A stretch of 64,000 bases of DNA. Source: the human T2T-CHM13v2.0 reference genome, Homo sapiens. The number at the start of each line of letters is the position of its first letter. Positions within the stretch are counted from its first letter, which is position 1. The notes beneath the pieces were generated by a model. It searched no databases. It was not told the DNA's origin and saw nothing but the letters and a program-made list of their open reading frames with translations. Of the stretch, positions 5,615-64,000 are shown piece after piece. The position numbers and the translations under genes were made by a program. The DNA is taken from the NCBI RefSeq assembly GCF_009914755.1, contig NC_060948.1; one strand, written 5' to 3'.

Positions 5615-6851
<1,237 letters not shown>

Positions 6852-7690: not shown

Positions 7691-7694
7691 AAAG

Positions 7695-10525: not shown

Positions 10526-10529
10526 GTTG

Positions 10530-38893: not shown

Positions 38894-38904
38894 TAAGTAA
38901 ATGG

Positions 38905-39705
<801 letters not shown>

Positions 39706-40256
39706 CTGAAACAAACAAACAAAAAAAGACAAAATTTCTCCCTCATTAGACTCAGGTGAATACACTTGACAAATGTGTAATTATACAAAGCACATTAACA
39801 AGGTGACAATAAAATACCACAGGGCCTAATTCCTTTATAAACATATAAGTTTAACATAATATACTTACCAAAATGCCTTTGTGAGAAGTCCAAGACTCAG
39901 TTAAGCATTTGCAGCACCAAGTGAGCAAAATGCCAAGAACCACATAGGAGTGTAATAAAAGTATTTCATATTTACCCACTACACACATATTTTATCCTAT
40001 GAAAAGTGTAGAGACTGACAACTCCTGTCTTACCCCTTCAAAAATAAATAAAACAGTGACATGTCCATGCTTCTGGCTTTTTGAGTTTTTACCAAAGACA
40101 AATTCCTACATTCCAAGACAGTGTTGAAAGGAAAGATGGTATACTTTGACTGAGACTAAAGACAAATAACTGTTACAAAAAAAGAAAGACTTCAGTATCA
40201 TAGGCAGACTATGGGTATCCAGCTGACTGCAGGATCTCAGTGAGAAATATGGGGAA

Positions 40257-42100: not shown

Positions 42101-45100
42101 TCTTGAATAGACAGGAGAGACATCACCTAGGTTTTGCATTCAGCCATATGTCGCAATTCCTTCAATAAGCAAGACCCAGGCAAGAGAGCGGAGTTACATT
42201 TCAATAAGCAAGACCCAGGCAGGAGAGCAGAGTGATATTTCAAAATGTCCTCTGGGTGCGGGACACAGGCTGGAGAGACACATCACCTAGCCGAAAAGAC
42301 CAGAAATATGTAATAATATCCCCTGTTGACAGGGCCCAGGCAGAAGAGTCAAGTTATTATGATTCTGTCCCATTGACATGTAACAATAAACCCATGGAAA
42401 GGAATATGAGCCAAAAAGTCTCAACACCTGCATACTATGTCCAGTCGTATGACACAATCTCCTCATCTTTGAGAGTGACAGTTTTAACTTTTACCTGAAT
42501 ATGTATATTAGCGTCACAATTTCACATGTGTGCTGGGCCAATATACAACACTGTCTACAGGAGCTGAGGGTTTTATAAACCTGCATAAGAATTGCAAAGC
42601 TCTCTGAGGACTACATGCTCCTATGGACTCACAATCTTACATATGGCCCTAAACTCAGGTTTGATAGTCATCATCTCCCTATAGGCAGGGTTAGGGAGGA
42701 AGACCCATTATTATGCCAGTGGGCTGGGTCCAGAAATGAGTCACCATCCCAACTTTTGTCAGATTAACATATAAAAGTCAAACCTCCAACTTTGTGCTGT
42801 ATTCCCTGTTAGACTCAGGACCTCAACCTTGGACATTGTAAACGTTGGATGATGACAACTTTTGATTTCACCTGGGTGTGTAACCAGGAGTCTCAATCTG
42901 AACTTTTTGCTGGGCCCTGTTATGAAACATTCTACCACCAAAGAGTTTGAAAAAATATAACTCAGTGTTAAGCTTCTATGACCTTGGTAGAAATATGTAA
43001 CCCAGGAACTTACCTATTGCCCTAAGCCTAATGATGAGAGGTAAAATATCTCCTATTGGCTGAATCCCAAAATAAGTTTGATCATCATGCCTGTGAACTA
43101 AAAGCAAGATATATGTCATAATCCCATATGTGGCCAAATAAGTATGCAGGAGGGAAACATCACTTATATGGTGTGCCAGGCAATATGTCAAATTGCCTTC
43201 TTCAGGCAGGGTATAGGGGATATTAGGTCACAATAACCGGGTGTTGGAGCCAGCAATATGACAACATCTCACATGTAGAAAATACCCAGCCAAGTTAGGA
43301 GAGCCAAAACATCTGCATTATGGGCTGAAGATATGTCAAAATACCTTCAGTGGCTCCAACACAGGCCGGAGAGTCACATCATAAGGATGCTGGGCTTATC
43401 AATATGCAATATGCCATAGTTTCTTCTTTGTGCAAAACCCAGGCAGGTGAGTAACATCATCGGGATGCTGGGCCCTGCAATAGGTCCAAATTCTTTTTTT
43501 GTGGGCATGGCTCGGGAACAAGAGGAGAGTCACATATTCTGCGTGCTGGGATCAGCAATGTGCCAAAATCCTCTTAATGTGAAGCCCCAGGCAGAAAAAT
43601 AGAGTCACATTTTTAGATCATGGGCTCAGAAATATGTCCAAATGTTTCCAGTAGGCAGGGCTCATTGAGACGAGGAAAGTCATATCACCTGGGTGCTTCC
43701 CTTCAAATATGCATAATGTAACATGTAAGCAGAAACAAGGTAGAGGAGCCACGTCCCTTGGGTGCTGGGTCCTGAGATATGTCACAAGGCTGTCTTAGGA
43801 TATCATCCAGGAAAGGGAGTTACATAAATGAGGTACAAATTCTCTGCTTATTCCACAATGCTCCATGTGAGTAGATCCCAGAGAGGGAGTCACTTCAACC
43901 AGGTGATAGCTGAAGAGACGTGTCACAGTGTCCTCTATGAAGCACAGCCCTGGCTAAAGAGTACCCTCACCTGTGTGCCTGGCCTAGAAATATGTCACTC
44001 TCCAGGTTGGCAGGGCCCAAGCCGGAGAGCCACATAACTTAGGTGACAGGCCTAGAGATATGTCACAGTGCCCTACTTTCAGCATGGCTCTGGCAAAAGA
44101 ATACCCTCACCTGTGTGACTGGCATTGCAATATGTCACTATCCTTCCTTCGGGCAGGGCCCATTCCAAAGAAGAGAGTTACATCACCTATGAGGTGGACA
44201 CAGGAATATGTCACAGTAATTTTTGTGGACATGGCACAGGCAAGAATGTAACATCACCTGGCTGCTAGATCCAGTGATCTGTCACAACACTTACTGAGAG
44301 AAGAGCCCAGGCATGGCAGTCATATCCCCTTGAGGCTGACCCAGCTAGATATCACAATTTCATATATAAACTGGGACCATTCTGGAAAGTCCAACTACAC
44401 AGGTGCTTGGCAAATATGTATATCACAATCACACTGTCAGAAAATGTCAAAGGTGAGTTTTATGATACCACACATGTCCTGTTTTTACGTGTGACAGTTG
44501 GCTGCAACCATGTGGGATGATGACAGTTATTTCTGTCAGCTGGGTTTGCATACAGGACTCACAATTTCACCTGTGTGCTGAGTGCTACATTGGTTCTGCT
44601 TGTATAACCCAAAGACTCTATAAAAGTATGTGTCAATGTTGTAATCTTTTGTGATGTTTGTACAAGAATGTGATCCATGATATCACACATGTCCCTACAC
44701 CTAGTTATAAGAGCCTAAATATTCTCTATTTGCTGAGTTCACATCTAAGAGTCGTTATCATTCCTGCGAGCCTTGCGTAGGTATATGTTACAATTCCATG
44801 AGTGGTTATGAAGCAGGCAGAACAGCCTCATCACCTAAATTCTGGGCCTGAAATATTTCAATATTATCTTTGTAGACAGGGTCCTGTCAGAAATGCCACA
44901 TGACTTGTGTGCTGGGTCCAGCTCTGTGGCACAATGTCCCTTGTGGGTAGTGTCCAGGAAGAAGAGGAGAGTAATATCACCTAAATGATAGGCCCCAAAA
45001 TATGTCAAAATGCCTCCTGTTGACAGGGCCCAGGAAAGAGAGTCGTATCATTTAGATGCAGTGTTTAGAAATGCTACAATTACCAAAGTAAGCAGGGTAC

Positions 45101-48100
45101 AGGCAGGAGAGGAGAATCATGTAACCTAGATGATGTGTTCAGAAATATGATACAATCCCTCCTGAGGCCATTGTTAAAATAGCACGGTAAAATCATCAAG
45201 TTACTTGGCCAGGTATTTGTCAAAATCTGATTTGTGGGCTATACCTAGGAAGAATTATTAAATCTCTCTGGAGCTGGACAAAGGTATGTGTCACAATTTC
45301 ACTTGTGGAAAGATTTAGGAATTACAGTCACCATCCTGCACATGTCCTGGCTCCAAACATATGAGTTGTTATTAGGCTTTTGTTTTGGTCTCAGGTATAT
45401 GACACAATATCACCTGTGGCCAGAAAGAAGGCAAGAAACTCACATCACCTACATGGGTGCAGGTCCAGTGAGATGTTGCAATCCACCTGGTGGGCAAAAC
45501 GCTTGCAGAATTGTCAGATCACTTGGATGCTGGTTTCAGTGATATATTTTTAAAAAGCCCTCTGTGGGAAGGACTTTGGCATGAGAGAAGACTCACTTCA
45601 TCTAGGAAATTGGCCTAGATTATGTCACAATGACCATTAACTGCAGTAAGAAGGCTAAAGAGTGCCCTCACCTTGGTGCTGTACCCAGGAATATGTCCCA
45701 AGCTCCCTGTGGTCAGGACACAATGAAAAGTGAAGAAACATCACCCAGGTGCTGAGCCAAGTGGTATGTTACTATGTTGGCAGAACCCCCCAAAAAATCA
45801 CATCTCCTGGGTGCAGTAGCCTGTTATGTGTCACAGTGCTCTGTAACTGCAGGGCCAAGACAGTAGAAGAGAGTGACATCACTTATGTGATGGACCTAAA
45901 TGTAAGACACAATTCTCTTTTTAGGCAGTTTTCAGGCAGGTAAATCACATCACCTGGGTGACGGTCCCAGTGATATATAAAAGTGCCCCTTATAGGCAGA
46001 GACAAGGATGATGTTATATATTGATTAGGGGCTTGTTCCGCATATGGCAAAATTTCATCTGTGGTCTGGGCCTAGAAATGTGCATCAAATTACTCATATG
46101 CTGGGAAGGGTTGCATGACCCAATCATACTTTCAAGAAGGTTCAGAAATAATTTTCAGTTCACTCAAGTCCGAGCTTTGAGTATGCGAATCAACACATTC
46201 TACGAGTTGGGTTGTAGTACAGGAGTCACAATCTCAGCAATGGGAAGATCCATGTGTAAGAGCCCCAATCCCACCCGAAGACTGTGTTCTAATAAGAGAG
46301 ACACAGCACCACAGTTCTACTTAATCATGGTTCCAATGCCATCAAACACCTGTGGATCAGATTCACGTACAAGTGTAACAGTTTCAAGTCTTATGTGTGT
46401 GAGATTTAGCACTGCATTGGTAGGCTCTGTTCATGTGTGAGAATAACAATTGTGTCAGCTTGGTGTGCATTCAAGAGTCACAATACCACCTGGTTTTGGG
46501 TGCCTGTTATGACACTCTTTGTACCACTCAGGCTTTATACGATATGCCTGAGTGGGATACTTTTCTGTGTATTCTTAGAGGTGGGTAATATAGAACTCTA
46601 CCCATGGCCATAGAGTTATTATTGTGCATGTGAGCTGAATCCAGGTATATGTCCCAAATTCACCTTTGGACAGAGACAAGACAGAAGAGTCTCATCATCT
46701 GGATTCTGATCCAGGGATACATTTTATTCTGCACTGTAGGCAGGACTCAGTCAGAAGAATCATATCACCTGGGTACACTCTCAAATAATATGTCATCATG
46801 CCTACTGAATACAGGGATTAAAAAAAGTGGATAGTCAAATTCTCTAAGGACTGGGCTCAGCACATCTTCTCGGACTCTCTTGGCAGAGCCCAGGACAAAG
46901 GGGAGAGTCACATCACCTAGGTTTTTCACTCAGTGGTATGTCACAATTTCTTCAGTGGGCAGGATTCAGCAGGAGAGGAGATTCACATTACCTAGATGCT
47001 TTATCTAGTGATATGTCACAGTGTCCTTTGTGGGCAGGGCACTGGCAGGAGAGACACACCACTTAGCTGATAGGCCTAAAGACATGTGATCATATCCCCT
47101 GTTGTCAGGGTCCAAGCAGAGGGTTAAACTATTATGATTCTAAGCAAGGGATGTTTTACAATGCAACCATGGAAAAGAATTTAAGCCTAAAATTCTCAAC
47201 ACCTAGAGGTACTAGGCCTCGTGATATGGCACAATCTCTTCATCTATTAGGGTGACAACTTTGACTGTTTGGTGAGTATATAGGAGTCACAATCTCATGT
47301 GTATTCTGGGTGATCCTATGACACAATCTACAACATACAAAGGCTTTAAGCAACATGCATGAGAGTTGCAATCCATTCTGAGGCCTACATGCTCCTATTG
47401 ACTCACAATCTTACATACTGCTTTAAACTCAGTTATGATAGGCAACATTCCTCTTATAGGCTAGATTCAGACAGAAGACACATTATTATGCCCCTGATGT
47501 GGGTCCAGAAGTGAGTTACCATCTCACCTGTAGCAAGATCCATATATGAAAGTCACAATTCCATCTTTGTACTTTATTTACTTGTTAGACTCAGGACTTC
47601 AACAGTGGGCTTTGTAAATGTGGGATTTTGACAACTTTTTCTCTCACCTGCATGTGTAATCAAGAGTCAAAACCTTAACTTTTACTGGGCCCTGTTATAA
47701 AACTCTGTGTACCAACCAAGGAGTTTATAGATTATGTGTTACTGTTGTAACCTTCTGTGAACTTTGTACAAATTTGCAACTCATAACCTTACCTATTGTT
47801 CTAAGTGTAGCCATGAAAGGCAAAACATCTACTATTGGTGAAATTTCAATTTCAGCTTGATCATAATGCGTCTGAATTGAAGGAATGTAAATTTCATACC
47901 ATTTGTAGAAAAAAAAAAAAACTTTTCAGAAAGGTAGCATACTTAGGTGCTGTGCCAAGCAATATATCACAAGGCCCTCTCAATGCAGGTCTAGAAATTG
48001 GGGTTATGATAACTGGGTGCTGGACTCAGCAATAAGACATAAACCCAAATGTAGAATATGTAGGAAAAAGAAATGCATACTAATGATGAGAACAAGATTA

Positions 48101-51100
48101 CCTACAGAATAGGCCCATGGTATGTAAAAATACTTTGTTATTCTAGCACAGGCAAAAGAGTTACATCATCAGGGTGGGGGCCCCAGCAATATGCCATAAT
48201 TCTCTCTTTATGCTGGACCTAGTAACAAGAGAACTGTCATCTTCATGCTGGGATCAGTGATACATCAAAGTTCCTTTTCATGGGCATAGTTCAGGAAAAA
48301 AGGAGTCAATTTACCTAAGTATTGGGCCTAGCAGTATATCACATCACCCCATTCTAAAGGCTCTTGCAGAAAAAAAGATTCACATCACTTAAGACACAGG
48401 CTCAGATATATGGCCCAATGTCCCAAGTAGGCAGGACTCATGCAGAAGAGAAGAGTCATATCACCTAGGTGCTTCCTAGGTATATGACACAATCTAACAT
48501 GTGAGGTGAAGCCAGGCAGAAGAGTCACATCACCTTGATGCTGGGTCCTAAGATATGTCACAAGACTTCCTTAAGACAGGACACAGAAAAGAGAGTTACA
48601 AAAAATAAGTACAAAAAAATATCACAATGCTCCATGTGGGCAAGACAGAAGCAGGGAGTCACATCACCTAGGGGACTGGCCGAGAGATATGTCACAATGT
48701 CCTCCTTGAGTCATGGCCCTGGTGAAAGAGTACCATCACCCATGTGCGTAGCCTAGCAATATGTCCACTATCCAGGTAAGCAGGACCCAAGCAGGAGAGC
48801 AACATCATCTAGCTGATAGGCCCAGAGATTTGTCACAGTGACCTCTTTAGGACATGGCCCTAGCAAGAAAGTACCATCACCTCTGTGCATTATGTTGTTA
48901 TCCAGGTAAGCAGTACCCAAGCAGGAGTGCAGTATCACCTAGGATAGGCCAAGAGATTTGTCACAATGCCCTCTTTAGGACATGGTACTAGCAAAATAGT
49001 CCTGTCACCTCTGTGCCTGGCCCAGCCACATGTCACTATCACCCACTGAGTGCTGTGCCCATTCTAATAAGGAGAGTTGTGTTGCCTAAGTTGTTGACAC
49101 AGTGGTATGGCCCAGTGATTTCTCTATGCATGGCTTAGGCAAAAATGTAACATGACCTGGGTGCTGGATCTAGTGATATGTCATGATTCTTAATGACAGC
49201 AGGGCCGAGGCAGGAGCATCACATCACCTAAAGTTTGGCCCAGGTAGGTATCACAATAACATATGTGGACTGGAACAAGTCTGGAGAACAAAATCACACA
49301 GGTGCTTGGCGAAGATTTATATCACTCACACTGGCAGAAAATTCTGAGGATGAGATTTATAATACCACACATGTCCTGTTTTCATGATTGACAGTTGGCA
49401 TCATATATGTGAGACGGTGACAGTACTTGCTGTCAGCTGAGTGCACATATAAGACTCACAGTTTCACCTTTCTCTTGGGTTCTGTTATAAAACTCTCTGT
49501 ATGGGCCAAGGTGTTTATAAAACATCTGAGGCTCTTATAACCTTCCTTGTCTTCTTTTTTACCAGAAAGTGATTTAATCTCTCATGTTTCTGAAGCAAGT
49601 TATGAGACTCAGAATTAACCGTATTTACGGGGTCCACATATGAGGGTCATTATCATGTCTCTAAGTTGTACCTAGGTATATGTAACAATTTATATTGTGG
49701 CTTATGAAATAGGCACGACAGCCAAGTACACTAAATGCTGAGCCAGAAATGTTCTAATATTCTCCTTGTAGGCATACTCCTGGCAGTAAAGTTGCATAAA
49801 CTGGGGGTTACACCCAGATATATGGCACAATGCTCCTGTGGGCAGTTTCCAGACAGAAGAAGAGACTCATATCACCTAAATGCTAGGACCAGAGATATGC
49901 CGCAATGTCTCGTGTTGAAGGGACCAGGAAATGGAGTCATATCATTTGGATGGCATGATTAGAGATGCTGGAATCCCCAGTGGAAGGAGGGTTCAGACAG
50001 CAGAGGAGAGTAAGACAACTAGACGAGGGGTCCAAAGCCATGTTACAATCCTTCCTGAGGATATTCTTAAGACAGGAGAGTCAAATTGCCAAGGTGCTCA
50101 GCTGAGTAATATGTCCAAATCTCATTTGTGGGCAACATTTAGGCAAGATGATTAAGTCACTCAAGAGATGGGAAATAGACTATGTCACAATAACACTGGT
50201 GGAAAGTTTCAGCAATGGGAGTCACCATCTTTGATGTGACCTGGCTTCAGGTCTAACAGTCATGATTAGTCCTCTTGTTTGCTCTCAAGTATATGGCATG
50301 ATATCGTCTATGGACAGAGAGCAAGCAGAAATGTCACATCACTTGTGAGGGTGCTGGTCCAGTGAGATGTCACAATCTTTCTTGTGGCCAGGACCCTGGA
50401 AGAAGAGGCATATCACCTGGAAGCTGGTTTCAGTGATATGTCAAAATTTCTTCTGTTGGGCAGGGCTTAAGAAGGTGAGGAGAATCACTTTACCTACATC
50501 TAGGCAATTGGCCTAGATATATGTCACAATGGCCACTAGGTGCAAAACCAAAGTATGAAAATGACCTCACCTTGGAGGTGGGTTTATCAATATGTCACAA
50601 TCTCCCCTGTGGTCAGGGTGAGGTAGGAGAGTAGAAACATCACCTAAGTGCTAAGCCAAGTGATATGTTACAAAGCTTTCTGTTTGTAGAACCCAGAATG
50701 GAGTGTCACATTTTCTGAGTATACTATCCAGTTATGTGTCACAATGCACCATAATTACAGGGCAAAGGCAGTGGAAGTGAGTCACGTCACTTACATGATG
50801 GACCTAGATAAAAGCCACAATGCTTTATATAGGCAGGAATCAAGCAAATAATACACATCTCCTGGCTGCTCATCCCAGTGATATGTAAAAGTGACATTTG
50901 TAGGCAGGCCCAGGCACCTTTGCTTAGGTTTTTGGTCCACATATGTCACAATTTCATCTCGGGTTATGGCCTAAAAAGGAGAGTCAAATTACTCAGGACC
51001 TGGGCTAACTTTTAAGTCCTAATCATACACCAGGAAATATTCTGAAGTAAGTTTCACAGCCCCACACAAGTCCTGGCTTTATGTATGAAAGTCAACACCT

Positions 51101-51296
51101 TCTGTGAGTTGGGTCGAAACAGAGGAGACACAATCTAAACAATGGGCATAATCCATGTAGAAGATGGCAATCCCACTTGATAACTGCATTCCAGGGGGAG
51201 AGTCCCAGCCTCACAGATGTGCTGAACCATGCAACCCCAAACCACCTGTGAGTCAGATCCACATATGAGAGGAACAATTTCAATCTTTTACTGCTC

Positions 51297-51837
51297 TTTT
51301 GGTGAGATTTAGTACTTTATTTGCAGGTTCTGTTCTTGTGAGAGAATGATAGTCGCGTCAGCTGGGTGTGAATCCAATAATCACAATAGCATTGGTTTGC
51401 TGTTCCCTGTTATAACACTCATTGTACTACTCACATTTTCTATGATACGCTGGGAGTGTCATAATACTGTGTGAACTTTATACCACTATGAGAACCATTA
51501 CTTTGCTTGTGGCCATAAGAATGGCAATGAGAATCAAAATATCTCTCCTCTTTGGGTCCAGGTATGATAGTTGTATTATTGCATGGTATCTGAAGCTGGG
51601 TATATGACAAAATTTTACCTGCGGGCAGAAACAGAGCAGGAGAGTCTCATCACCTGGATGGTGAGCTCAGGATACATTATAATCTTAGAGAAACAGAGAA
51701 GACTCACATCACCTGGGTGCTGGACTCCGCAATATGTGATAATCCCTTGTTTTGGCAGACTCCAGAATAAAGAGGAGAGTTGCATTACCCAGTTTTTGCA
51801 GTCAGCGTTATGTCACAATTCTTTTAGTGGGCAGGAC
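51297..51837 (-). other. BPY2: Putative BPY2 3' UTR exons (about 51713-51837 and 51297-51618)
   Basis: Acceptor ctctcctgcctag|GTCC at 51837, donor CCCAG|gtgatgtgagt at 51713, acceptor tttctgcccgcag|GTAA at 51618, and AATAAA on the minus strand at 51316-51321. The choice among many similar sites leans on my recollection of the mRNA and is unverified. Confidence 0.5.
51316..51321 (-). terminator. Candidate polyadenylation signal AATAAA for BPY2
   Basis: tttatt on the plus strand, at the end of the putative terminal exon. Confidence 0.45.
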
Positions 51838-54800
51838 CTAGGCAGGAGAGAAGAATCACATTTCCTAGATGTTATCACCGATGATGTCACAATGTTCTTT
51901 GGTGAAAAAGCAGAAGCAAAATAGACAAATCACCCAAGAAATAGGCTCAGATATATGTGACAATATCCCTACTTGGCAGGATCAAGTAGTAAAAAGTCAC
52001 ATTATTGTGATTCTGACCCAACGATATGTCACAATGCACACATGGGAAACAAAGCAGTTTTTACACCTGGGTACTAGGCCCAATGATATGACAATATCTC
52101 CTCATCTTTTAGGGTGACACCTTTAACTGTTAACTCATATGTATGTAAGTCACATTGTCACGTGTGTGCTGGGCCATTGTATGATAACCTCTAGAACATC
52201 TGAGAGTTTTATACAACATGCGTGAGATTCACAAACTACTCTGAGGTCCACATGCTCATTTTGACTCTGAATATTATATATTGCCTTAAACCCAGATATG
52301 AGAGTCAGTATCTCTCATTTATGCTTAGTTCAGGAATGAGGCTTATTTTTATGCCTGTGAGCTGGGTCTAAAAATGAGTGATGGTTGCACCTGTGGCAAA
52401 ATCCACAAATGAGAGTCACAATTCCATCTTTGTACTGTTTTACTTGTTAGACTCAGTATCTCAGCAATGGGCTTTCTTAATGAGGGGTGGTGACAAGTTT
52501 TACTTTCAATTGTGTGTGTAATTCAGAATCACAATCTTAACTTTTTGCTGGGCTTTGTTAGGAAACGCTGTACCACCCAAGGAGTTTATACAATATTAAT
52601 TATTGTTCTGTGAGCTTTCCTCAAATACGCAACCCAGGATTTTACCTATTGCCCTAAGCCTTGCGATGAGAGGCAAAATATCTTCTATTTGCTGAATCAC
52701 AATGTAAGTTTGACCATCATACCTGTAAACTGAAGCAAGGTATATTTTATAATCCCATTTGTGGGCAAAAAATTACCAAAAAGAGTAATGTCACTTAGGT
52801 GCTGTGGCACGCAGCATGTCACAGTGCTGTCTCTAGGCAGAATACAGAAAGCAGGGTCATGTTATCTGGATGCTGGACCTAGCAATATGACACAATTTTA
52901 CTTGTTAAAAAAAGAAACTCAACCAAGGGATGAAAGCCAAAACACTTACAGATTTGGCTGAAGATATGTCAAAATGCCCTCTGTGGCTCTGGCACTGGTG
53001 GGACTGAAGCATCATTAGAGTGTTGGGCCTACCATTATGCAATCACTCCCTCATTATTCAGGACTGCAGCAGAAGAGTAACATCATCTGAGTGCAATAGG
53101 TGAAATTTTCCCTTTGTGGGCATGGTTCAGAAAAAAGGAAATAGTCACATAACCTAAATCCTGGTCTCAGAAATACATCACAATTTCAGCATTTTAAAGG
53201 CTGAGGCAAGGGAAGAGAGTCATATCACTTAGGTCATGGGCTTAGAAACATGTCCCAATGTCCCCAGTAGGCAGAAGTCAGGCAGAATTCAGGCAGAAGA
53301 GGAGAGTGGTGTCTCATTGGTGCTTCTTTAGGTGTATGTCTCAATCTAACACATGGGCAGAACCAGACAGAAGAGCCATATAACCTGGGTACTGGGTCCT
53401 AAGGTATGTTGCAAATCCCGATTAGTTCAGAACCAAGGTGAAAGAGTTACATCACCTTGGTTCAGGTTTCACTTTCATGTCACAATGCTCTATGTGTGTG
53501 AGGCCAAAGCATTTAGTCCCATAAACTAGTTTATTGGCCCAAGAGATAGGTCACAAAGTCCCCTGTGAAGCATAGTCTTGGCAAAAGAGTATCATCACCT
53601 GTGTGCCTGGCCTAGAAATATGTCATTCTCCAGGTTGTCAGGGCCCAAGCAGGAGAGCCGCTTAACCTAGGTAATAGGTGCAGAGATATGTCACAATGCC
53701 CTACTTTGGGCATGGCTGTGGCAAAAAGTACCCACAGCTGTATGCCTGGCTTCACAATATGTCACCATCCTTCCTTTGTGCAAGGCCCATTCCAGAGATC
53801 AGAGTTTCATCCCTATGAGGTGCACACACAAATATGTTCACAATAATTTTGGTTGGCGTGGCACAGGCAAGAATGTGAACATCACCTGGATGCTAGATCC
53901 AGTGATATGTACAATCCTTACTGAGAGAAGGGCCCAGGCAGGAGAGTCACATCTCCTTGAGGTTGGCCTAGGTAGATATCACAATCCCACATATGGGCTG
54001 GAACAAGTCTGGAGAGTCAAATTACACTGGTGCTTAGCAAAGATTTATATCACAATCACACTGTCAGAAAATTCCAAAGATGTGATTTACAATACCACAC
54101 ATGTCCTGTTTTCATGTGTGACAGTTGACTTCATCCATGAGAGATGATGACAGTCCTTACTGTCAGGCGGGTGTGCATACAAGACTCACAATTTCACCTG
54201 AGTTGAACCCTGCTTTGACTCTTTCTGTATAAACCAAAGACTCTGTAAAATGTGTGTGTTGTAATCTTTTGTGATGTTTGTACAAGAAAGTGATTCAGGA
54301 CATCACGCATGTCCCTAAACTGAATTATAAGAGTAAAAATATTCTCTGTTGGATGAGTCCACATATAAGAGTCATTATTATTCCTGCAAGCCCTGCCTAG
54401 GTATTTGTTATAATTTGTTCTGTTGTTATGAATCAGGCCTAACAGCCACATCACCTAAATGCTGGGCCAGAAATATTCCAGTATTCTTTTTGCAGGAGGG
54501 GTCTTGTCCAAAATATCACATAACTTGTGTGCTAAATCCAACTCTGTTGCACAATGTTCATTTTGGGCTGTGTCTAGGCAGGAGAGGAGAGTCACAGGAC
54601 CTAAAAGCTGGGCTCAAGCATGTGTCAAAATGCCTCTCAACAGGAGAGTTTCTCCAAAAAAAGAGAGCCATGTCATTTGAATGCAGTGTTTAGAAAAGGT
54701 ACAATTACTATAGGAAGCAGGGTACAGGTCAAAGAGGAGAGTCATATACCCTAAATAATGGGTCCAGAAACATGTGACTATTTTGCCTGAGGACACTTTT

Positions 54801-55662
54801 TAGATAGCACAGTCAAATCACCAAGGTGCTTGATGAAGATATTTGTCAAAATCGCTTTTGTAGGCTATATCTAGGCAGAATTATTAAATCACTCAGGAAC
54901 TGAAATACAATATATGTCACAATTACACTTGCGGAAAGGTTTAGGTATAAGACTCAACTGTGGGCTTTGTAAATGTGGGATGGTGGCAACTTTTAATTCC
55001 ACCTGGGTGTGTAATCGAGAGTCCCAATTTGAACTTTTTGCTGGCCCCTGCTATAAAAATTTCTACCACAAAGGAGTTTATAAAATGTAAGTTAGTTGTG
55101 TAAGTTTCTGTGAGCTTGGTACAAATATGCAGCCCAGGACCTTATCTATTGCCCCAAGCCTAACAATGAAAGGCAAATATTTTCTATTGGCTGAATCCCA
55201 GTATAAGTTTGATCATCATGGCTGTGAGCTTAAACTGGGTATATGTTATAATGACATATGTGGGCAAAACACTACGCAGAAGGGTAACATCACTCAGATG
55301 CTGTGCCCAGCAATATGTCACAATGCCTTCTGTATGCAGGGTGTAGGAAATTGGGTCACGTTAACTGGGTGCTGGACCCAGAAATACGACACAATTTCAC
55401 ATGTGTAAGAAACCCAGCCCAGTTATGAGAGCCAAAACACCTACATAATGGGCATAATATATGTCAAAATACTTTCGGTATCAGCAGCACAGGCAGGAGC
55501 ATCACATCTTAAGGGTGCTGGGCCCAGCAATATACAATATGCCATAATTATCTCTTTATGCAGATCCCATGCAGAAGAGTAACATGATCTGCATGCTGGG
55601 CAATAATATGTGTCAAATTTCTTTTTTGTAGGCATGGTTCAGGAGAAAGAGAAGAGAAACAG

Positions 55663-56123
55663 ATCCTGAGTCCTGGGCTCAGCAATGTAACAAAATCCTC
55701 CTTTTATGAAGGCCCAGGAAGAAAAACAGAGTCACATCACTTAGGTCATGGGCTCAGAGACATGTCCTAATATTCCAACTAGGCAGAGCTCAGGCAGGTG
55801 AGGACAGCCGAGAGTCACATATCCTGAGTCCTGGGCTCAGCAATGTGACAAAATCCTCCTTTTATGAAGGCCCAGGAAGAAAAAGAGTCACATCACTTAG
55901 GTCATGGGCTCAGAGACATGTCCTAATACTCCAACTAGGCAGAGCTCAGGCAGGTGAGGACAGCCGAGAGTCACATATCCTGAGTCCTGGGCTCAGCAAT
56001 GTGACAAAATCCTCCTTTTATGAAGGCCCAGGAAGGAAAAGAGAGTCACATCACTTAGGTCATGGGCTCAGAGATATGTCCTAATACTCCAACGAGGCAG
56101 AGCTCAGGCAGATGAGGACAGCC
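55663..56123 (+). repeat. Recent ~157-bp triple tandem repeat inside the beta-satellite array
   Basis: atcctgagtcctgggctcagcaatgt starts at 55663, 55821 and 55977; the copies are nearly identical. Confidence 0.95.
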
Positions 56124-58493
56124 ATATCACCTATGTGCTTCCATCAAAATATGTCACAATTTAACATGGGGGCAGAAACTATGCAGAAGAGCCACATCAC
56201 TTGGGTGCTGGGTCCTGTGATATGTCACAAAGTGCTCTTAACACAGCACCTAGCCAAGAGAAATACATCATACTAGGTGAAGGGTCTCTGCTTATGACAC
56301 AATGCTTCATCTGGTTAGGACCCAGGGAGAGAGTCACTTCATTTAGGTGATAGGCCCAGAGATATGTCACAATGTACTGTGTGAAGCATAGCCCTGGAAA
56401 AGGGTACCATCACCTGTGTGCCTGGCCTAGAAGCGTGTCACTTTCGAGGTTGGAAGGACCCTAGCAGGAGAGCCACATAATGTAGGTGATAGACCCAGAG
56501 ATATGTCACATTGCCCTCCTCCAGGCATCCACAGGATAAGGAGGAACCTTGCCTGTGCGCCGGTCCTTGCGCTATGTCACTATCATTCTGTTGTGCAGTG
56601 CCCATTCCAGAGAGGAGACTCACATCAACTATGAGGTAAACACAGAAATATGTCACAATAATTTTGGTGGGCAGGGTGCAAGTAAGGATGTAACGTTACC
56701 TGGGAGCTAGGTCCAGTGATATGTCACAATCATTACTGAGAGATAGGACAAGGCAGGAAAGTCATGTCACCTCGAGGTTGGCCTAGGTAGATTTCATAAC
56801 CCCACCTATGAGCTGGAACAAGTCCGGAGCCTCAGATTACACAAGTGCTTAGCAAAAATTTATATCATACTCACACTGTCAGAAAATTCCAAAGATGAGA
56901 TTTACCATCTTACCACACATGCCCTGTTTCATGTGTGACAGTTACCTTTATCCATGTGAGATAATGAGTTCTTACTTTCAGCTGGGTGTGCAAACAAGAC
57001 TCATGATTTCATCTGTGTGCTGAGCCCTGCTTTGACTTTGTGTGTATGACCCAAAGACTTTGTAAAATATGTATGAGTGTTGTAATATTTTGTGACCTTT
57101 GTACAAGAAGGAGATCCAGGACATCATGCATGTCCCTAAACTGAGTTATAAGATGCAAAATATCCTCTATTGGCTGAGTCCACACATGAGAGTCATTATC
57201 ATGGCTGTGAGCCATGCATAGGTATATGTTACAATTCACTCTGTGGTTAAGAAGGAGGCCTGACAGCCATATCACATAAATGCTGGGTCAGAAATATTCC
57301 AATATTCTTTTTGTAGTCAGAGCCCTCTCAGAAATATCACATAACTTATGTGCTATGTCCAGCTCTATGGCTCAATATCCCTTGTGGACAGTGTCTAGGC
57401 AGGAGAGGAGAGTAATATCACCTAAATGATGGGCCCAAAATTTTGTCACAATTCTTCCTGTTGACAGGTCCCAGGCAAGAGTGTCATATCATTTGGATGC
57501 AGGGATTATAAATACTACAATCCACCAAAGAAGCAGGGTACAGGCAGGAGAGAAGAGTCACGTAACCTAGATGAAGGGCACAGAAATATGTTACAAGAGC
57601 CCCTGAGGACATTTCAAGATACATCAGCCAGATCACCAAGGTGCTTGACCAATGTATCTGTCAAAATCTCATTTGCTATACCTAGGCAGAATTATTAAAT
57701 CACTCAGGAGTTGAGCAAAGGTATATGTCACAATCAGACTTGTGGAAAGGCTTAAGTCTAAGAGTCACCATCCTGCACAAGTCGTATGCTCTAGTCATAT
57801 GAGTTGTTACTAGGCTTTTGTTTTGGTCTCTGGCACATGGCAGAATATCACCTGTGGCCAGAGAGAACACAAGAAAGTCCCATCACCTATGTGGGTCTGG
57901 GCCACTAAGACATCACTATTCACCTTGTGGGTAGGAACCTGGTGGAAGAGCCACAGCACCTGGATTTCAGTGACATATCAAAAGCCTCTCTTCTGGGCAG
58001 GGCTTTGGCAAGAGAGGAGACTCACTTCACAAAGGCAGTTGGCCTAGATGTTTGCCACAATGTCTATTCCGTGCAGTAACCAAACTGTAGAGTGGCCTCA
58101 CATAGGTGTTTGTCCCAGGAAATATGTCACAATCTGCCTGTGGTCTGGGCCAAGGCGAAAGTGAAGAAACATCACCTAGGTACTGAGCCAAGTGATATGT
58201 TCAATGCTTCCTGTTGGCAGAACCCAAAAAGAAGAATCACATCACTTGAATGCAGTACCCAGTTCTTTGTCACAATGCCCTGTAAGTGCATGGCCAAGGA
58301 AGTAGAAGAGAGTCACATCACTTACAGGATGGACCTAGATATATAACAAAATTCCTTTTGTAGAAAGGTTTCAGGCAGATAACTCACATCATCTGGGTGA
58401 TGGTCCCAGTGACATATGTAAAATTTCCCTTTGAAGGCAGAGCCACGATGGATGTTATCTATTGCTTAGCTGCTTGTTCCACATATGGCACAA

Positions 58494-58512
58494 TTACTTC
58501 TGTGATCTGGGC
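58494..58512 (-). CDS. BPY2: BPY2 last coding segment (R)PRSQK-stop; the exon probably continues as 3' UTR to a donor at 58388
   Basis: Acceptor cattttctag|G CCC AGA TCA CAG AAG TAA. Phase fits (AG|G = Arg) and matches the recalled BPY2 C-terminus RPRSQK. Downstream donor GATGAT|gtgagt at 58388/58387. Confidence 0.93.
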
Positions 58513-59204
58513 CTAGAAAATGAGTCAAATTATTCATTTGCTGGACAAAGTGACCTATCCCAATATGACACTCTCATATATGTTCGGAAATAAGTTTCAC
58601 ATCCCACACAAGTCCTGGTTTTGTGTATGTGAGTCAATTCTTTCTGTAAGTTGGATCAAAATGGAGGAGTCAAAATCTCAACAATGGGCAAGATTCATGT
58701 ATAAGAGCCGCAATCCCCCTTGAACATTGTGGTCCAGGAGGGGAGTCACGGCACCACAGGTGTGCTGAATCCTGGTTCAAATGTTAACAAACCACCTGTG
58801 GATCAGGTCCATGTAGGTGAGTAATTATTTCAAACATCGACTGCTTTTTATGTGTGAGATTTAGTCCCTCATTCCTAGACCCTGTTAATATGCGAGAATG
58901 ACAATCATTTCAGTGAAGTGTGCATACAAGAGTCATATTCTTACCTGGTTGCTGGTCTCTGTTATGACACTCTTTGCACCATTAATGCTTTATATGATAT
59001 ACCTGAGTATTATAATCCTTCGTGACTTTTATACAAGTGAAAAACACAGGGCTTTACCCATGGCCGTGAGACTGGCTATGAGAGTCAAAATATTCCTACA
59101 GGCTGGGCCCAGGTATGAGAGTTATTTTTGTCCATGCGTGCTTAACCCAGGTACGTGTCAAAATTTCACCTGTAAGCAGAGACAAGGAAAGGGAGTCAAC
59201 TCAC

Positions 59205-59310
59205 CTCGACACTGAGCCAGTGATACAGCATAATCTCATTTGTATGCTGGGCCTAGTCAGAAGAGTCACTTCACCCGGGTACAGTTTCACATAATATGTC
59301 AGCAAGCCCA
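59205..59310 (-). CDS. BPY2: BPY2 internal coding exon, 106 nt, (V)GLLTYYVKLYPGEVTLLTRPSIQMRLCCITGSVS(R)
   Basis: Acceptor ccctgtccatag|TGG, donor TCGAG|gtgagt. The phase joins the upstream exon (G|TG = Val) and the translation matches recalled BPY2. Confidence 0.95.
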
Positions 59311-62164
59311 CTATGGACAGGGAAGAAAAAAGAGAGGACAGTCAGTCCACCTATGTGCTGGACTCCGCAATATGTAACAACCCTCTCTCTTGGTAGAGTC
59401 TAGAATATGAAGGAGAGTCACATCATGTAGGTTTTTCAATCAGCGGTATGTCACAATTTGTTTGCTGAGCAAGGCTCAGGCAGGAGGTGAGAGTCACATT
59501 ACCTAGATGTTAAGCCAAACAATATTTCACAATGTCTTCTGGGTGCAGGACACTGTCAGAAGAGACAAATCCTCTAGCTTATAGACCCATAGATATGTGA
59601 TAATATCCCCTTTTGGCAGGGTCCAGACAGAAGAGACACATTATGATTCTAACACAGTGATATGTTACAATCCACCCAAGGAAAGGAATTTAAGCCAAAT
59701 AGTCTCAACACCTAAGCACTATGCCTATTAATAGGCCAAATCCCCTTGTCTTTGAGAGTGACATTATAAACTCTGAGCTGGGTGTGTATATGAGAGTAAC
59801 AATTTCACTAGTATCCTGGGCCGTTGCATGACTCTCAACAATTTTCAAAAGCTTTATACATCACGCATGAGAGTTTCAAACCACTCTAAGGCCTACATAT
59901 TCACATGGATTCATGACCTTACATATTCCCCTAAACCCAGGTATAATAGTCAGCATCTCCTCTATAGGCTGGGTTAGAAATGAGACTCATTTTTATGCCT
60001 GTGAGCTGGATCTAGAAATAAGTCACAATCCCACCTGTGGCCAGATCCACATACGAAAGTCACAATTCCAACTTTGCACTGCATTCATTTGTAAAACTCA
60101 GGTTCTTAACAATGGCCTTTGGACATGTAGAATGATGACAGCACTTGCTTTTACCTGGGTGTGTAATCAAGAATCTCAAACTGAACTCTTCACTGGTCCC
60201 TATCACCAAACTCTCTATACCAACAAAGAAGTTCATACATTATGAGTTAGTGTTGTAAAGCTCTGTGAGCTTGGTACAAATATGCAACCCAGACTTTATG
60301 TATTGCCCAAAGCCTAGCAATGAAAGGTAAAATATCTCCTATTGGCTGAATCTCAGTATAAATTTGACCATCATGCCTGTGAACTGAAGTCATAGTCCCA
60401 TTTGTGAGCAAAAAAAGTAGGCCCGAGGGTAACATCACTTAGGTGTTGTGCCAAGCAACATGCCACAGTGCCCTCTCTAGGTAACATAGAGGAATTAGAG
60501 TCATGTTAACTGAGTTCTGGACTCAGCAATATGAAACAATCCATTATGTGGAAACAAACAAAAACAAAAGTGAAAAAAAAAAAAAAAAAAACAGCAAAAA
60601 GATAAGAGCCAAAACACCTACATAATGGGCCCAGGATCTGTGAAAATACCTTCTCTGCCTCCAGCAAAGTCATGAGTTTTATATTTTCAGGATGCTGGGC
60701 CCAGCAGTATGTTATAATATTCTCTACATACAGGACCCACGTAAAGGCGTAACATTATCTGGGTGCTGGGCCCTGCAATAGGCCAAAATTTCTGTTAGTG
60801 GGCATGATTTGAGATTAAAAAAAAAAAAGGTGAATCAAATAACCTGATTGCTAGGTTGAGCAATATTTCACAATCTCTCCATTGTAAAGACCCAGCAGAA
60901 AAAGAGAGTCACTTCCCTTAGTTCATGGGCTCAGAGATATAGTCCAGTGTACCCAGTGAACAGGGCCCAGGCAGAAAGGGAGACTCATATCACCTAAATG
61001 TTTCCCTAGTTATATGCCAAAAACCTTACCCACGGGCAGAAACCAGGCAGAAGAGCCACATCACCTGGGTACAACTGCAAGTAATATGTCACCATCCCCA
61101 GCATAGATAGGTTTCTTATAAAATTAGATAATGACACCACGTGGGTGCTCTGCTCACCAATATGTAACAATTCCCTCTCTTGACAGAGTCCAGGAAAAAA
61201 AGGGGACTTCTGTCACCTAGGCTCTGCACTCAATGGTATATGACAATTTTTTCAGTGAGGAGGATCCAGGCAGTAAAGATGGGTCAAATTTCCTAGATTC
61301 TAAATCCAGCAATATGTCAGTGTCTCCTCTGGGCAAAGTACTGGCAGGAGAGACATATTACATAGCCAATAGGCCTGGAGATATGGGAAAATATCCTCTG
61401 TTTGCAGGGCCCTGGAAGAAGAGTCACATTATTTTGATTCTGACCCAGTGATATGTAACAATGCCCTAATGGAATGAAATTTAAACTAAAAGTTCTCAAC
61501 ACCAGCTAGTAGGGCAAGATATATGACAAAATCTCCTCATCTTTAAGGGTGACACCATTAAATGTTAGCTATCTGTGTATAAGAGAGTCACAATCTCATG
61601 TGTGTGCTTGCCATTGTATGACACTCTCTATAATACCTGAGAACGTTATGCAACATGCATGAGAGTTGCAATCCTCTCTGAGGCCTACAGGCATTTACAG
61701 AATTATGATTATGCATATTGCCCTAAACCCAGGTATGACAGTCAGCATCTCTCCTATAGACTGGTGTTAGGGATGAGATCATTATTATGACTGAGAGTTG
61801 GCTCCAAAAATGAGTCACCATCCCACCTGCGGCCATATTCATTTATGAAAGTCACAACTCCATCTTTGTGGTGTATTTGCTTAGACTCAGGATCTCAACA
61901 ATGGGCTTTGTAGATGTAGGATGGTAAAAACTTACTTTCATCTGAGTGTGCAGTCAAGAATCATAATCTTAACTGTTTGCTGGGCACTGTTAAGAAACCC
62001 TTTGTATCACCCAGGAAATTTTTATTACATGAGTTAGTGTTGTAAACTACTGTGAGCTTTGTAGAAATGTGCAATGAGTAACCTGACTCTTTGACCTAAA
62101 CCTGGTGGTGAGAGGAAAAATCTCTCCTATTGGCTGAATCCCAACATAAGCTTGATCATCATAC

Positions 62165-62282
62165 CTTTGGACTGAAGCAAGGTATTTCTCACATTCCCAT
62201 TTTTTAGCAACCTATGCAGAATATTAACATCACTTAGGTTCTTTGTCAAGCAATATGTCATGATGCCCTCTGTAAGCAGCAC
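62165..62282 (-). CDS. BPY2: BPY2 (VCY2) internal coding exon, 118 nt, VLLTEGIMTYCLTKNLSDVNILHRLLKNGNVRNTLLQSK plus 1 nt
   Basis: Hand translation of the minus strand matches BPY2 residues ~27-65 as I recall them. Acceptor ctttcctag|GTG, donor AAAG|gtatg. Length is 39 codons + 1 nt. Confidence 0.95.
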
Positions 62283-64000
62283 CTAGGAAAGAGGGCCACA
62301 TTAACTGCAGGCTGGAGTCAGCAATATAATACAACCACACGTGGAAGAAATTCAGCAAAGTGGTAAGAGTGAAAACACCTAGAAAATGGGCCAAAGATAT
62401 GTCGAAATACCTTCTGCGGTCCTGGCACAAGCAGGAGAGTCACATCATTAGGGTTCTAGGCCAAGAAATATGCCACAATTTTCTCTTTATGCACAACCTA
62501 GGCAGAAGAGCAGCTTCATCTGGGTACTGGGCCCTGAAATACGGCAAAAGATCTGTTCCTGGGCGTTGTTCAGTTACAAGATGAGAGTCACATTACCTAA
62601 ATGCTGAGCTCATCAATATCTCATAATCTTACCATTGTAAAGCCCTAGACAAAAATAGAGTCACATCACTTAGGTCACAGGCTTAGAAATATGGCCCAAT
62701 ATCACCAGTAGGCTGGGTTCAGACAGAAGAAGAGTCATATTACCTAGATGCTTCTTTAGCTATATGTCACAATTTAATATGTGGGTGAAAACCAGGTTGA
62801 AGAGCCACATCATGTGGTCCTGGGTACTGAGGTATTCACAAGTCCCTCTTAGAAAAGGACCCAGGCAAGAGAGTTATGTCACCTAGGTGCAGATTCCACG
62901 CTTATGTCTCAATACTTCATGTGGGCAGGACCAAGCAGGAAGTCACATCACCTTGGTGATAGGACCAGGTATATATGACAAGGCATTTTTGAAAGCATGG
63001 CCCTGGCAAAAGAGTTCCATCACCATTGTGCCTGGCCTAGCAGTATGTCACTATTCAATTGGGCAAGTTTCAAGCAGAAGAGCCGTATCACCTACACGAT
63101 AGGTCCTGTGATATGTCAAATGCCCTTTTTTGGGCATAGCCCTGGGAAAAGAGCATCATCACCTGTGTGCCTGGCCTAGAAACAGGTCACTATTTTGCCC
63201 AGTGTTCAAGGCCCTTTCCAGAGAGGAGAGTGACATCTTCTAACTGATGGACACTGCAATATGTCACAATGATATCTGCGAGCATGGCGCAAGCAAGAAT
63301 GTAACGTCACCTGTGTGCTGGATCCAATGATGTTATAATTCTGAGTGGAGGGCCCAGGCAAAAGAGTCACGTCACTTCAAGGTTGGCTTAGGTAGATACC
63401 AAAATCCCATAGGTAGGCTGGAACCAATCTGAAGGGTGAACTCACACAGGCACTTGGCAAAGATTTATATCAGTCATGATGGAATAAAATTCTAGGGATT
63501 AGATTTACAATATCAGGCGTGTTCTATTTTTATGTGGGACAATTGCCTTCATCATCTGTAATGGTGAAAGCCGTTACTGTCAGCTGAATGTACATATGAG
63601 AATCCCAATTTTCTCCATGTGCTAGGCCCTGTTATGACTCTCTCTATACGACACAAGGATGTTATAAAATATGTGTGAATGTTGTAATCTTCTGTGACCT
63701 TTTTACCAGAAGGAGATGCTGGATATCACTTATCTCCCTAAGCCTAGTTATAAGAGTCAAAATGTTTCCTATTGGCTGGGTTCACATATGAGAGTCCTTA
63801 TCATGTATTTTAGATGTGTCTACAGATACGGCGCCATCTCATCTGTGGTAATTAAACAGGCAGAAAACGACATCACCTAAATCCTAAGCCAGAAATACCC
63901 CAACTTTATTTTGTAGAGAGGGCCCTAACAGAAATATGACAAAACTTAGGTGCTAGACTCAGCTCTATGGCATAATGCCCTTTGTGGAGTGTGTCCAGGC

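What the first reader, a model, noticed from the sequence alone, without database searches (positions are those of the whole stretch)
58388..62282. BPY2 coding exons are made of antisense beta-satellite: candidate protein-coding gene born from satellite DNA
Seen: all three coding exons and their introns lie inside the satellite array, with no unique-sequence island. The exons contain monomer motifs (aacatcacttagg..caatatgtcatgatgccctc in 62165-62282; aagagtcacttcacccgggt..aatatgtcagc in 59205-59310) and have non-coding paralogues in neighbouring higher-order units. Known: BPY2 is a small testis-expressed AZFc protein with no recognised domain. Inference: the ORF arose de novo by exonisation of a complex beta-satellite rather than by duplication of an older gene. 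I do not know whether this has already been published.
Basis: partly seen in the sequence, partly recalled or inferred. Interest (0 to 1): 0.88.

Follow-up and report, generated by a model that had tools for sequence, protein, structure and literature searches.

The report
BPY2 exons built from satellite repeats
About two thirds of the coding sequence of the Y-linked testis gene BPY2 is made of old, decayed beta-satellite-like repeat units read on their reverse strand, which names the raw material for a gene whose origin from non-coding DNA was already published in 2015.

Summary
Window 42.4-64 kb (continuing to at least 73 kb) and 10.5-20.4 kb are one-orientation arrays of a degenerate 71/76-bp monomer. 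At E<=1e-3 there are 265 hits on + and 0 on -. A model built only from a 68-bp GATC-bearing array on chr1 finds 142 + / 0 - hits in the window. These cover the coding exons 62165-62282 (E 3.4e-9) and 59205-59310 (6.6e-6), and exon 58388-58512 (1e-6).

BPY2C is transcribed from the opposite strand. Its splice junctions reuse four monomer positions. Exons 2 and 3 read the monomer in the same frame.

Corrections:
- There are four coding exons. The ATG exon lies outside the window at 64342-64419, and its first 48 nt cannot be shown to be monomeric.
- The array fails two defining beta-satellite features, the 68-bp period and the Sau3A site.

De novo origin from non-coding 8q11 DNA is already in print (Cao 2015, PMC4370482). 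That paper never mentions satellites, and six literature searches found no paper that links them. Verdict: real; a new detail on a known case; moderate interest.

The parts
42400..64000 (+). Degenerate beta-satellite-related tandem array holding the in-window part of BPY2C. All monomers are on +, with median period 71 bp (modes 71 and 76). It continues beyond the window to at least 73,000, past the annotated gene end at 72,500.
   Evidence: nhmmer monomer model: all hits on +. Significant monomers cover 48% of 42.4-73 kb and 0% of the - strand. The chr1-only model gives 142 + / 0 - hits. Monomers still flank 72,500.
10500..20450 (+). Second array of the same monomer family and orientation, lying downstream of the pseudogene ZNF736P2Y.
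   Evidence: Coverage is 49% at E<=1e-3 on + and 0 on -. Blocks are paralogous to the 42.4-64 kb array at 74-81%.
62165..62282 (-). Coding exon 2 of 4 (CDS nt 79-196, 39 codons plus 1 nt), made of about 1.6 monomers read on the reverse strand.
   Evidence: Window model: E 5e-10 and 3.9e-4. chr1-only model: E 3.4e-9 over 99 of 118 nt. Consensus alignment: 0 of 2000 shuffles reach the score. The acceptor is at monomer junction 41|40.
59205..59310 (-). Coding exon 3 of 4 (106 nt), made of about 1.4 monomers. It reads the monomer in the same frame as exon 2.
   Evidence: E 1.7e-11, 5.1e-11 and 8.6e-4. chr1-only model: 6.6e-6 over 93 nt. Acceptor at junction 28|27, donor at 66|65. Frame and peptide alignment.
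58388..58512 (-). Exon carrying the last 19 coding nt (58494-58512, including the stop) followed by 3' UTR.
   Evidence: E 5.3e-6 and 7.6e-11. chr1-only model: 1e-6 over 66 nt. Acceptor at 41|40, donor at 61|60. The translation ends in a stop.
51713..51837 (-). 3' UTR exon, monomer-derived.
   Evidence: chr1-only model: E 1.2e-7, 3.1e-7 and 7.7e-6. Acceptor at 41|40 (monomer E 1.9e-12). Donor at 66|65 (monomer E 0.042).
51297..51618 (-). Last exon. The acceptor sits in a monomer; the rest lies in a repeated block that is not recognisably monomeric.
   Evidence: Acceptor at junction 28|27 (monomer E 8e-12). Block 51297-51598 has 22 same-strand copies in the array.
55659..56123 (+). Young local triplication of a 156-bp monomer dimer inside a BPY2C intron.
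   Evidence: TRF: period 156, 3.0 copies, 96% matches.

Best explanation
BPY2C is a transcription unit that lies inside an old, decayed tandem array. From its annotated 3' end at 51,297 to its annotated 5' end at 72,500, monomers are present throughout. The array is homologous to 68-bp beta satellite, and the gene is read from the strand opposite to the monomers.

That reverse strand carries ready-made splice-like signals at fixed places in each monomer. One is a pyrimidine run followed by ..CCCACAG|G. Another is the same kind of run followed by CCTGG, where one G-to-A change gives CCTAG|G. The third is CCTAG|GTGATGTGAC, which offers two GT donors. It also has one frame that stays open for about 37-39 codons.

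The exons are 1.4-1.7 monomers long and begin and end at these few positions. Splicing joins four short open pieces into a 106-codon frame. Exons 2 and 3 are paralogous monomer stretches read in the same frame.

Shown here: the homology, the orientation, the junction positions, the paralogues, and the disabling differences in the chr8 copy.

Inferred: the order of events. The array would have been duplicated from pericentromeric chr7/chr8 DNA to the Y, then gained the ATG, the donors and the frame-opening changes on the Y, as Cao et al. 2015 proposed without recognising the satellite. It is also inferred that the ATG-bearing 48 nt are a decayed monomer.
For: Repeat family
- Monomer model: 265 + / 0 - hits at E<=1e-3.
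- A model built from 82 chr1 monomers only gives 142 + / 0 - hits in the window and covers 4 of the 5 in-window exons at E<=7e-6.
- The chr1 array has period 68 and a GATC site in its consensus.
- The window consensus matches the chr1 consensus at 55 of 74 columns.

Coding sequence
- 202 of 321 CDS nt lie in monomers at E<=1e-3, and 232 at E<=1e-2.

Splice junctions
- Acceptors: 41|40 three times and 28|27 twice.
- Donors: 66|65 twice, 61|60 once, and 28|27 once for exon 1.
- Five random reverse-strand AGs fall in <=2 phases with P=0.0065.
- Reverse-strand GT is present at 64-65 in 158 of 218 monomers and at 59-60 in 136 of 250. AG is present at 28-29 in 108 of 264 and at 41-42 in 26 of 263.

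Reading frame
- The longest open frame in the tandem reverse consensus is 37-39 codons.
- Exons 2 and 3 align co-linearly over about 100 nt in the same codon phase.

Non-coding relatives
- The chr8 copy is co-linear (77%, 87.6% and 82.3% for coding exons 1-3). It has ATA before the second ATG, TAA at nt 42, and GC or TG where the Y has GT donors.
- Paralogues occur only on chrY, chr8 and chr7.

Other
- 0 Pfam families for 3 exon peptides.
- Cao et al. 2015 (sections read) independently report the same disablers and an 8.5-kb internal duplication.
Against: - Coding exon 1 is weak. As 78 nt it is not more monomer-like than shuffles (486 of 2000 reach its score).
- Its ATG-proximal 48 nt are not significant in BPY2C or in any of 13 paralogues; the lowest count is 131 of 2000.
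- Only its 3' 30 nt overlap a monomer hit, at E 0.0046.
- About half of the array is not recognisable as monomers at E<=1e-3.
- The array lacks the 68-bp period and the Sau3A site. 'Beta satellite' is therefore homology, not membership.
- The protein-level repeat between exons 2 and 3 is weak (143 of 5000 shuffles).
- Donor clustering alone is not significant (P=0.24).
- One donor (62165) maps only by extrapolation from a hit of E 2.5.
- I could not run RepeatMasker/Dfam or look at other primates.
Confidence: 0.8

Rival explanations
1. The ORF is a chance open frame in a satellite-derived, testis-expressed non-coding RNA. BPY2 would then not be a functional protein-coding gene, so nothing was 'born' beyond a transcript.
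For: - A 2026 preprint reports BPY2 evolution consistent with neutrality and a low-confidence predicted structure (10.1101/2024.04.02.587783, passages).
- Another preprint reports that no non-human BPY2 exon location matches the human ones, and that bonobo and orangutan ORFs are not homologous to the human protein (10.1101/2023.03.02.530874, passages).
- No Pfam match.
- The reverse-strand consensus has about one stop per 18 codons, so a 106-codon frame in one of many possible splice forms is not extremely unlikely (the estimate is my inference).
Against: - Cao et al. 2015 (discussion read) cite testis-specific protein detection and binding partners (UBE3A and a MAP1S-like protein). I did not see the primary papers.
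- Full-length 106-aa ORFs were found in human and of similar length in gorilla.
- The three Y copies are identical over the two segments searched, around coding exons 1 and 2.
Confidence: 0.3
2. The start-codon segment (about 48-60 nt around 64372-64434) is a non-satellite insert inside the array. The gene would then be a chimera of unique and satellite DNA.
For: - There is no significant similarity to the monomer consensus in BPY2C or in 13 of 13 paralogues for this half.
- The slot between flanking monomers is about 50-63 nt, shorter than one monomer.
Against: - The segment is itself part of the repeated higher-order unit: 15 further copies on chrY, chr8 and chr7, always in the same context.
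- It is flanked within 0-16 nt by monomers of the same strand.
- By eye it keeps a CCTAAT(A/G)ATGAC motif resembling the monomer's CCTAGGTGATGTGAC. This is not statistically supported.
Confidence: 0.25
3. Gene first: an older protein-coding gene was amplified, and its exons seeded the repeat array.
For: Exons 2-4 have many paralogues in the array.
Against: - The exons match a model built only from a 68-bp array on chr1 that has no link to BPY2.
- Exons are only 1.4-1.7 monomers of a 31-kb one-orientation array.
- The chr8 paralogue aligned here carries a stop and lacks splice sites and the first ATG, and Cao et al. report the same kind of disablers in other autosomal and primate copies (section read).
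- No Pfam family.
Confidence: 0.03
4. The resemblance to beta satellite is chance or convergence, and the array is an unrelated tandem repeat.
For: The period is 71/76 rather than 68. There are 0.11-0.13 GATC sites per monomer against about 1.0 in the chr1 array. GC is 42.5% against 47-48%.
Against: - 142 hits at E<=1e-3 with the chr1-only model, all on one strand.
- 55 of 74 consensus columns are identical, with two long shared cores.
- Reciprocal hits of the window model on 5 of 5 chr1 loci, at 68-69-bp spacing.
Confidence: 0.03

Closest known systems
De novo origin of VCY2 (=BPY2) from non-coding autosomal DNA (Cao et al. 2015, PLoS One, PMC4370482; abstract and sections 13, 14, 16, 20, 22 read)
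   Same: It concerns the same gene and reaches the same conclusion: the ORF arose from non-coding DNA transposed from 8q11 (BEYLA/LINC00293), with a related chr7 copy in a ZNF cluster. The disablers I see in chr8 match theirs (ATA for ATG, a stop 42 nt downstream, a 4-nt insertion in the Y copy). Their 8.5-kb duplicated '5'-UTR segment' corresponds to the ~9.7-kb higher-order repeat I see.
   Different: The paper does not contain the words satellite or tandem (0 occurrences). It treats the source as an lncRNA locus or segmental duplication. It gives no monomer structure, strand relation or splice-position analysis.
Canonical beta (Sau3A) satellite: 68-bp monomers on the acrocentrics and chromosomes 1, 3, 9, 19 and Y (review PMC8125562, section 2.4 passage read)
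   Same: The sequences are homologous. Two conserved cores are shared (ATATGTCACAAT.. and ..AGAGT.ACATCACCT.GG). The arrangement is head-to-tail with higher-order repeats.
   Different: The window monomers are 71/76 bp and lack the GATC site. They are only about 72% identical to their own consensus and about 70% to the chr1 consensus. They lie in a Y ampliconic segment rather than a homogeneous pericentromeric array.
Complex beta-satellite blocks in the 19p12 zinc-finger gene cluster (Eichler et al. 1998, Genome Res 8:791; I saw the title only, in a reference list; the paper is not held)
   Same: Here too each array follows a ZNF736 pseudogene. The chr7 relative also lies in a ZNF cluster, according to Cao et al.. 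This suggests the same ZNF-associated kind of beta satellite.
   Different: Not tested. I did not compare the window with chr19 sequence and could not read the paper.
Exonisation of antisense Alu elements
   Same: A repeat read on its reverse strand supplies a pyrimidine tract plus near-consensus AG and GT sites, so one or two point changes create exons.
   Different: Here the repeat is a tandem satellite. Every exon tested comes from it, and together they supply most of a whole ORF rather than one cassette exon in an existing gene.

Membership tests
Beta (Sau3A) satellite | Sequence homology of monomers to canonical beta-satellite monomers | tested here: met
   A model built only from the chr1 68-bp array gives 142 + / 0 - hits at E<=1e-3 in the window. 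The consensus sequences match at 55 of 74 columns. The label 'beta satellite' for the chr1 array rests on its 68-bp period, its GATC site and its chromosome, as given in review PMC8125562.
Beta (Sau3A) satellite | 68-bp monomer period | tested here: not met
   The median period is 71 (IQR 70-75; modes 71 with n=52 and 76 with n=26, out of 202 adjacent pairs). Autocorrelation peaks at 71, 76 and 147.
Beta (Sau3A) satellite | One Sau3A (GATC) site per monomer | tested here: not met
   0.11-0.13 GATC per 70 nt in the window arrays, against 0.94-1.07 in the chr1 loci.
Beta (Sau3A) satellite | Head-to-tail tandem arrays with higher-order repeats | tested here: met
   All monomers share one strand. 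Repeats of about 9.7 kb and about 1.8 kb show 70-85% identity.
Beta (Sau3A) satellite | Annotation as BSR/Beta (or LSAU) by RepeatMasker/Dfam | not testable with these tools
   No repeat library is available. NCBI's masking in the hub table gives no family names.
De novo protein-coding gene | Homologous sequence elsewhere is non-coding (disablers present) | tested here: met
   The chr8 copy has ATA at the first ATG, TAA at nt 42, indels, and no GT donors for exons 2 and 3. Cao et al. report the same in several primates.
De novo protein-coding gene | No protein homologue or domain | tested here: inconclusive
   0 Pfam families at E<=1 for three exon peptides of 39, 34 and 26 aa. Short queries have little power. 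The full spliced protein was not searched, and no wide protein-database search was run.
De novo protein-coding gene | Evidence that the ORF is translated and functional | not testable with these tools
   Literature only. Protein detection and partners are cited in Cao et al.. Neutral evolution and non-conserved ORFs in apes are reported.

The most novel reading that the evidence does not exclude
The reverse strand of this ZNF-associated beta-satellite type acts as a built-in exon generator. Every ~73-bp unit offers the same few splice junctions and a frame that stays open for ~38 codons, so arrays of it repeatedly yield new spliced testis transcripts and occasionally an ORF.

On this reading BPY2 would be the first documented human protein-coding gene whose coding sequence is mostly classical satellite DNA. 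The lineage-specific, mutually non-homologous 'BPY2' transcripts and ORFs reported in bonobo, gorilla and orangutans would be independent exonisations of the same array at the same monomer positions. The same could hold for the neighbouring TTTY and LINC00293 RNAs.
Probability: 0.35. Interest if true: 0.75.

Novelty: new variant of a known kind. Interest (0 to 1): 0.55.

Why it matters
De novo gene birth is usually described from unique intergenic DNA or from transposable elements. A case in which classical tandem satellite DNA supplies the exons, the splice sites and most of an ORF would widen the list of raw materials.

It would also explain why BPY2 exon structures differ so much among apes. 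An array offers hundreds of near-equivalent splice sites. That idea can be tested directly on the complete ape Y assemblies and on existing long-read testis transcripts.

It is a caution as well. An ORF stitched from a periodic repeat may be open by chance, which bears on whether BPY2 should count as a fertility protein in AZFc deletions.

Tried and rejected
Steps that led nowhere
- nhmmer on the isolated 63-nt ATG segment returned no alignment at all, so the shuffle comparison was meaningless. I replaced it with consensus alignment plus shuffles.
- TRF on one unassigned block (51900-52800) found nothing even at score 30. Per-block autocorrelation gave only weak 38/77/114 periodicity in some blocks. 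Whether these blocks are decayed monomers or a second repeat is settled only indirectly, by the 86:4 strand bias of weak hits.

Sources I could not reach
- Papers not held: Eichler 1998, Waye & Willard 1989, Bhowmick 2007, and the Nature version of the T2T-Y paper. They may bear on whether the satellite nature of the green amplicon is in print.
- The bioRxiv version of the T2T-Y paper has 0 mentions of BPY2 in its main text.
- No supplements were opened.

Searches without a relevant result
- One literature search was badly designed and uninformative: it asked for any 2 of 6 terms.
- Pfam gave nothing.

Rejected readings
- I considered gene-first amplification and chance resemblance, and rejected both (see rivals).

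Full report
**What is at the coordinates.** The recurring words are ..ATTGTGACATAT.. and ..AGGTGATGTGACTCTC... Autocorrelation peaks at lags 71, 76, 147 and 38 in 42-64 kb and in 11-20 kb, but not in the rest of the window.

An nhmmer model seeded from one 156-bp unit of the window converged on 263 hits. All are on the + strand and all lie in 10-20.4 kb or 42-64 kb. A 70-column single-monomer model gives 265 + and 0 - hits at E<=1e-3, and 355 + against 12 - at E<=10. The empty opposite strand is the control.

The array runs on beyond the window, with 60 + / 0 - hits in the next 9 kb. Monomers still flank the annotated gene end at 72,500. BPY2C is on the - strand, so the gene is read from the strand opposite to the monomers.

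**Is it beta satellite?** A 16-nt core of the window consensus occurs 3,591 times in the genome, and 0 times when the pattern is read backwards. The first listed matches lie at chr1:128.1-128.6 Mb at 67-68-bp spacing.

TRF on one such locus gives a 68-bp unit with 24.2 copies and a GATC site. That fits the definition of beta (Sau3A) satellite in review PMC8125562: a 68-bp monomer on chromosomes 1, 3, 9, 19, Y and the acrocentrics (passage read).

- The window model hits 5 of 5 chr1 loci at 68-69-bp spacing.
- A model built from 82 chr1 monomers alone hits the window 142 times at E<=1e-3, all on +.
- The two consensus sequences match at 55 of 74 columns.

Homology is therefore secure. Membership is not:

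- The window period is 71/76 bp.
- GATC occurs 0.11-0.13 times per monomer, against about 1.0 in chr1.
- GC is 42.5% against 47-48%.
- Monomers are only about 72% identical to their own consensus.

I call it a decayed beta-satellite-related array. Which strand counts as 'sense' is a database convention that I could not check.

**Exons against monomers.** The three in-window coding pieces translate to 80 aa plus a stop. That leaves 78 nt upstream. I found that fourth coding exon, which is the first in the gene, outside the window at 64342-64419. It has an ATG, 26 codons and a GT donor.

With the chr1-only model:

| Exon | E-value | nt covered |
|---|---|---|
| 62165-62282 | 3.4e-9 | 99 of 118 |
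| 59205-59310 | 6.6e-6 | 93 of 106 |
| 58388-58512 | 1e-6 | 66 |
| 51713-51837 | 1.2e-7 | 77 |

The last exon is touched only at its acceptor. With the window model, 202 of 321 CDS nt lie in monomers at E<=1e-3, and 232 at E<=1e-2.

Coding exon 1 is the weak point:

- As 78 nt it is no better than shuffles (486 of 2000 reach its score).
- Its ATG-proximal 48 nt are not significant in BPY2C or in any of 13 paralogues.
- Its 3' part plus donor region is significant in 13 of 13 paralogues (<=1 of 1000 shuffles), and 4 of 1000 in BPY2C itself.

**The rest of the array.** Significant monomers cover 46-49% of the array. All 13 unassigned blocks of >=100 nt between 51.3 and 64 kb have 6-37 same-strand copies elsewhere in the array, at about 70-85% identity. 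Weak monomer hits in such blocks are 86 on + against 4 on -. They are therefore probably older, decayed units. There is a higher-order repeat of about 9.7 kb (58-62 kb against 68-72 kb), which matches the 8.5-kb duplicated 5'-UTR segment described by Cao et al..

**How it seems to work.** I mapped splice junctions to monomer positions.

- Acceptors: 41|40 for exons 62282, 58512 and 51837; 28|27 for exons 59310 and 51618.
- Donors: 66|65 for exons 59205 and 51713; 61|60 for exon 58388; 28|27 for exon 1.
- The donor at 62165 maps to 66|65 only by extrapolation from a hit of E 2.5.

Five random reverse-strand AGs fall in <=2 positions with P=0.0065. Donor clustering alone is not significant (P=0.24).

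The reverse-strand consensus reads ACCTAG|GTGAT|GTGACTCTCCTTCTGCCTGG|GTCCTGCCCACAG|GGGGAATTGTGACATATTGC... It has two native GTs, present in 72% and 54% of monomers. It has a native pyrimidine tract plus CAG, present in 41%. A second tract becomes an acceptor by one G-to-A change, present in 10%.

In tandem, the reverse consensus is open for at most 37-39 codons in any frame. That is close to the size of the coding exons (26, 39 and 35 codons). Exons 2 and 3 align over about 100 nt in the same codon phase, giving GIMTYCLTKNLSDVNILHR against GLLTYYVKLYPGEVTLLTR. The protein-level score is weak (143 of 5000 shuffles). Splicing at fixed monomer positions thus re-enters the open frame. This last step is my inference.

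**Non-coding relatives.** The exon-2 region has paralogues only on chrY, chr8 (87-81%) and chr7 (83%) among the 40 candidates scored out of 154. The exon-1 region has 18 matches (18 of 18 candidates scored), again only on Y, chr8 and chr7.

A 10-kb chr8 stretch is co-linear for coding exons 1-3. It shows ATA before the second ATG, TAA 42 nt downstream, the absence of the Y-specific 4-nt insertion, and GC or TG where the Y has GT donors. The exon peptides match no Pfam family.

**What is in print.** Cao et al. 2015 (PMC4370482) already argue for de novo origin of VCY2/BPY2 from non-coding 8q11 DNA, with the same disablers. Their text has 0 occurrences of 'satellite' or 'tandem'.

- Searches for BPY2, VCY2, BEYLA or LINC00293 with 'satellite' or 'beta', and for 'beta satellite' with 'de novo gene', returned no paper that makes the link.
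- Of the papers those searches returned, I opened five, checking passages only. I also checked the bioRxiv version of the T2T-Y paper, fetched by its DOI. None makes the link.
- Subscription papers, and four papers I asked for, are not held. Priority therefore cannot be excluded. The overlap may also be visible to anyone viewing a RepeatMasker track.

Two preprints bear on function. BPY2 evolves in a way consistent with neutrality. Non-human ape BPY2 transcripts use other exons, and in some species encode non-homologous ORFs.

**Verdict.** The de novo claim is already known. The new elements are the satellite source, the strand relation, and the reuse of four monomer positions as splice junctions.

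Noticed in passing
window 5648-10767 then 10500-20450; 38701-39708 then 42400 onward: Each of the two arrays begins just downstream of a ZNF736 pseudogene (positions from the hub's gene table). This suggests that a 'ZNF pseudogene plus beta-satellite block' unit was duplicated, as reported for ZNF clusters. I saw only the title of that report.
   Followed up: partly
window 55659-56123: Three copies of a 156-bp monomer dimer at 96% identity sit inside the old array, whose units are about 72% alike. This is a recent local amplification in a BPY2C intron.
   Followed up: no
window 42400-64000: Monomer spacing has two modes, 71 and 76 bp, and autocorrelation peaks at 147. This suggests an alternating dimer. 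There is also a half-period of 36-38 bp inside the monomer.
   Followed up: partly
L010, L014 against L015-L021 (G000:C1:128.10-128.14 Mb): The canonical chr1 68-bp array switches strand between about 128.111 and 128.120 Mb.
   Followed up: no
G000:C24:7.47-8.16 Mb (46 listings): Many further copies of the exon-1 and exon-2 regions lie on Yp at 73-91% identity. The best is near 7.593 Mb: 85% over exon 1 and 91% over half of exon 2. This is probably the BPY2DP pseudogene region named by Cao et al.
   Followed up: no
window 60548-60591: A poly(A)/poly(T) tract of about 40 nt interrupts the array inside the intron between coding exons 2 and 3. I did not check whether it marks an inserted element.
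   Followed up: no
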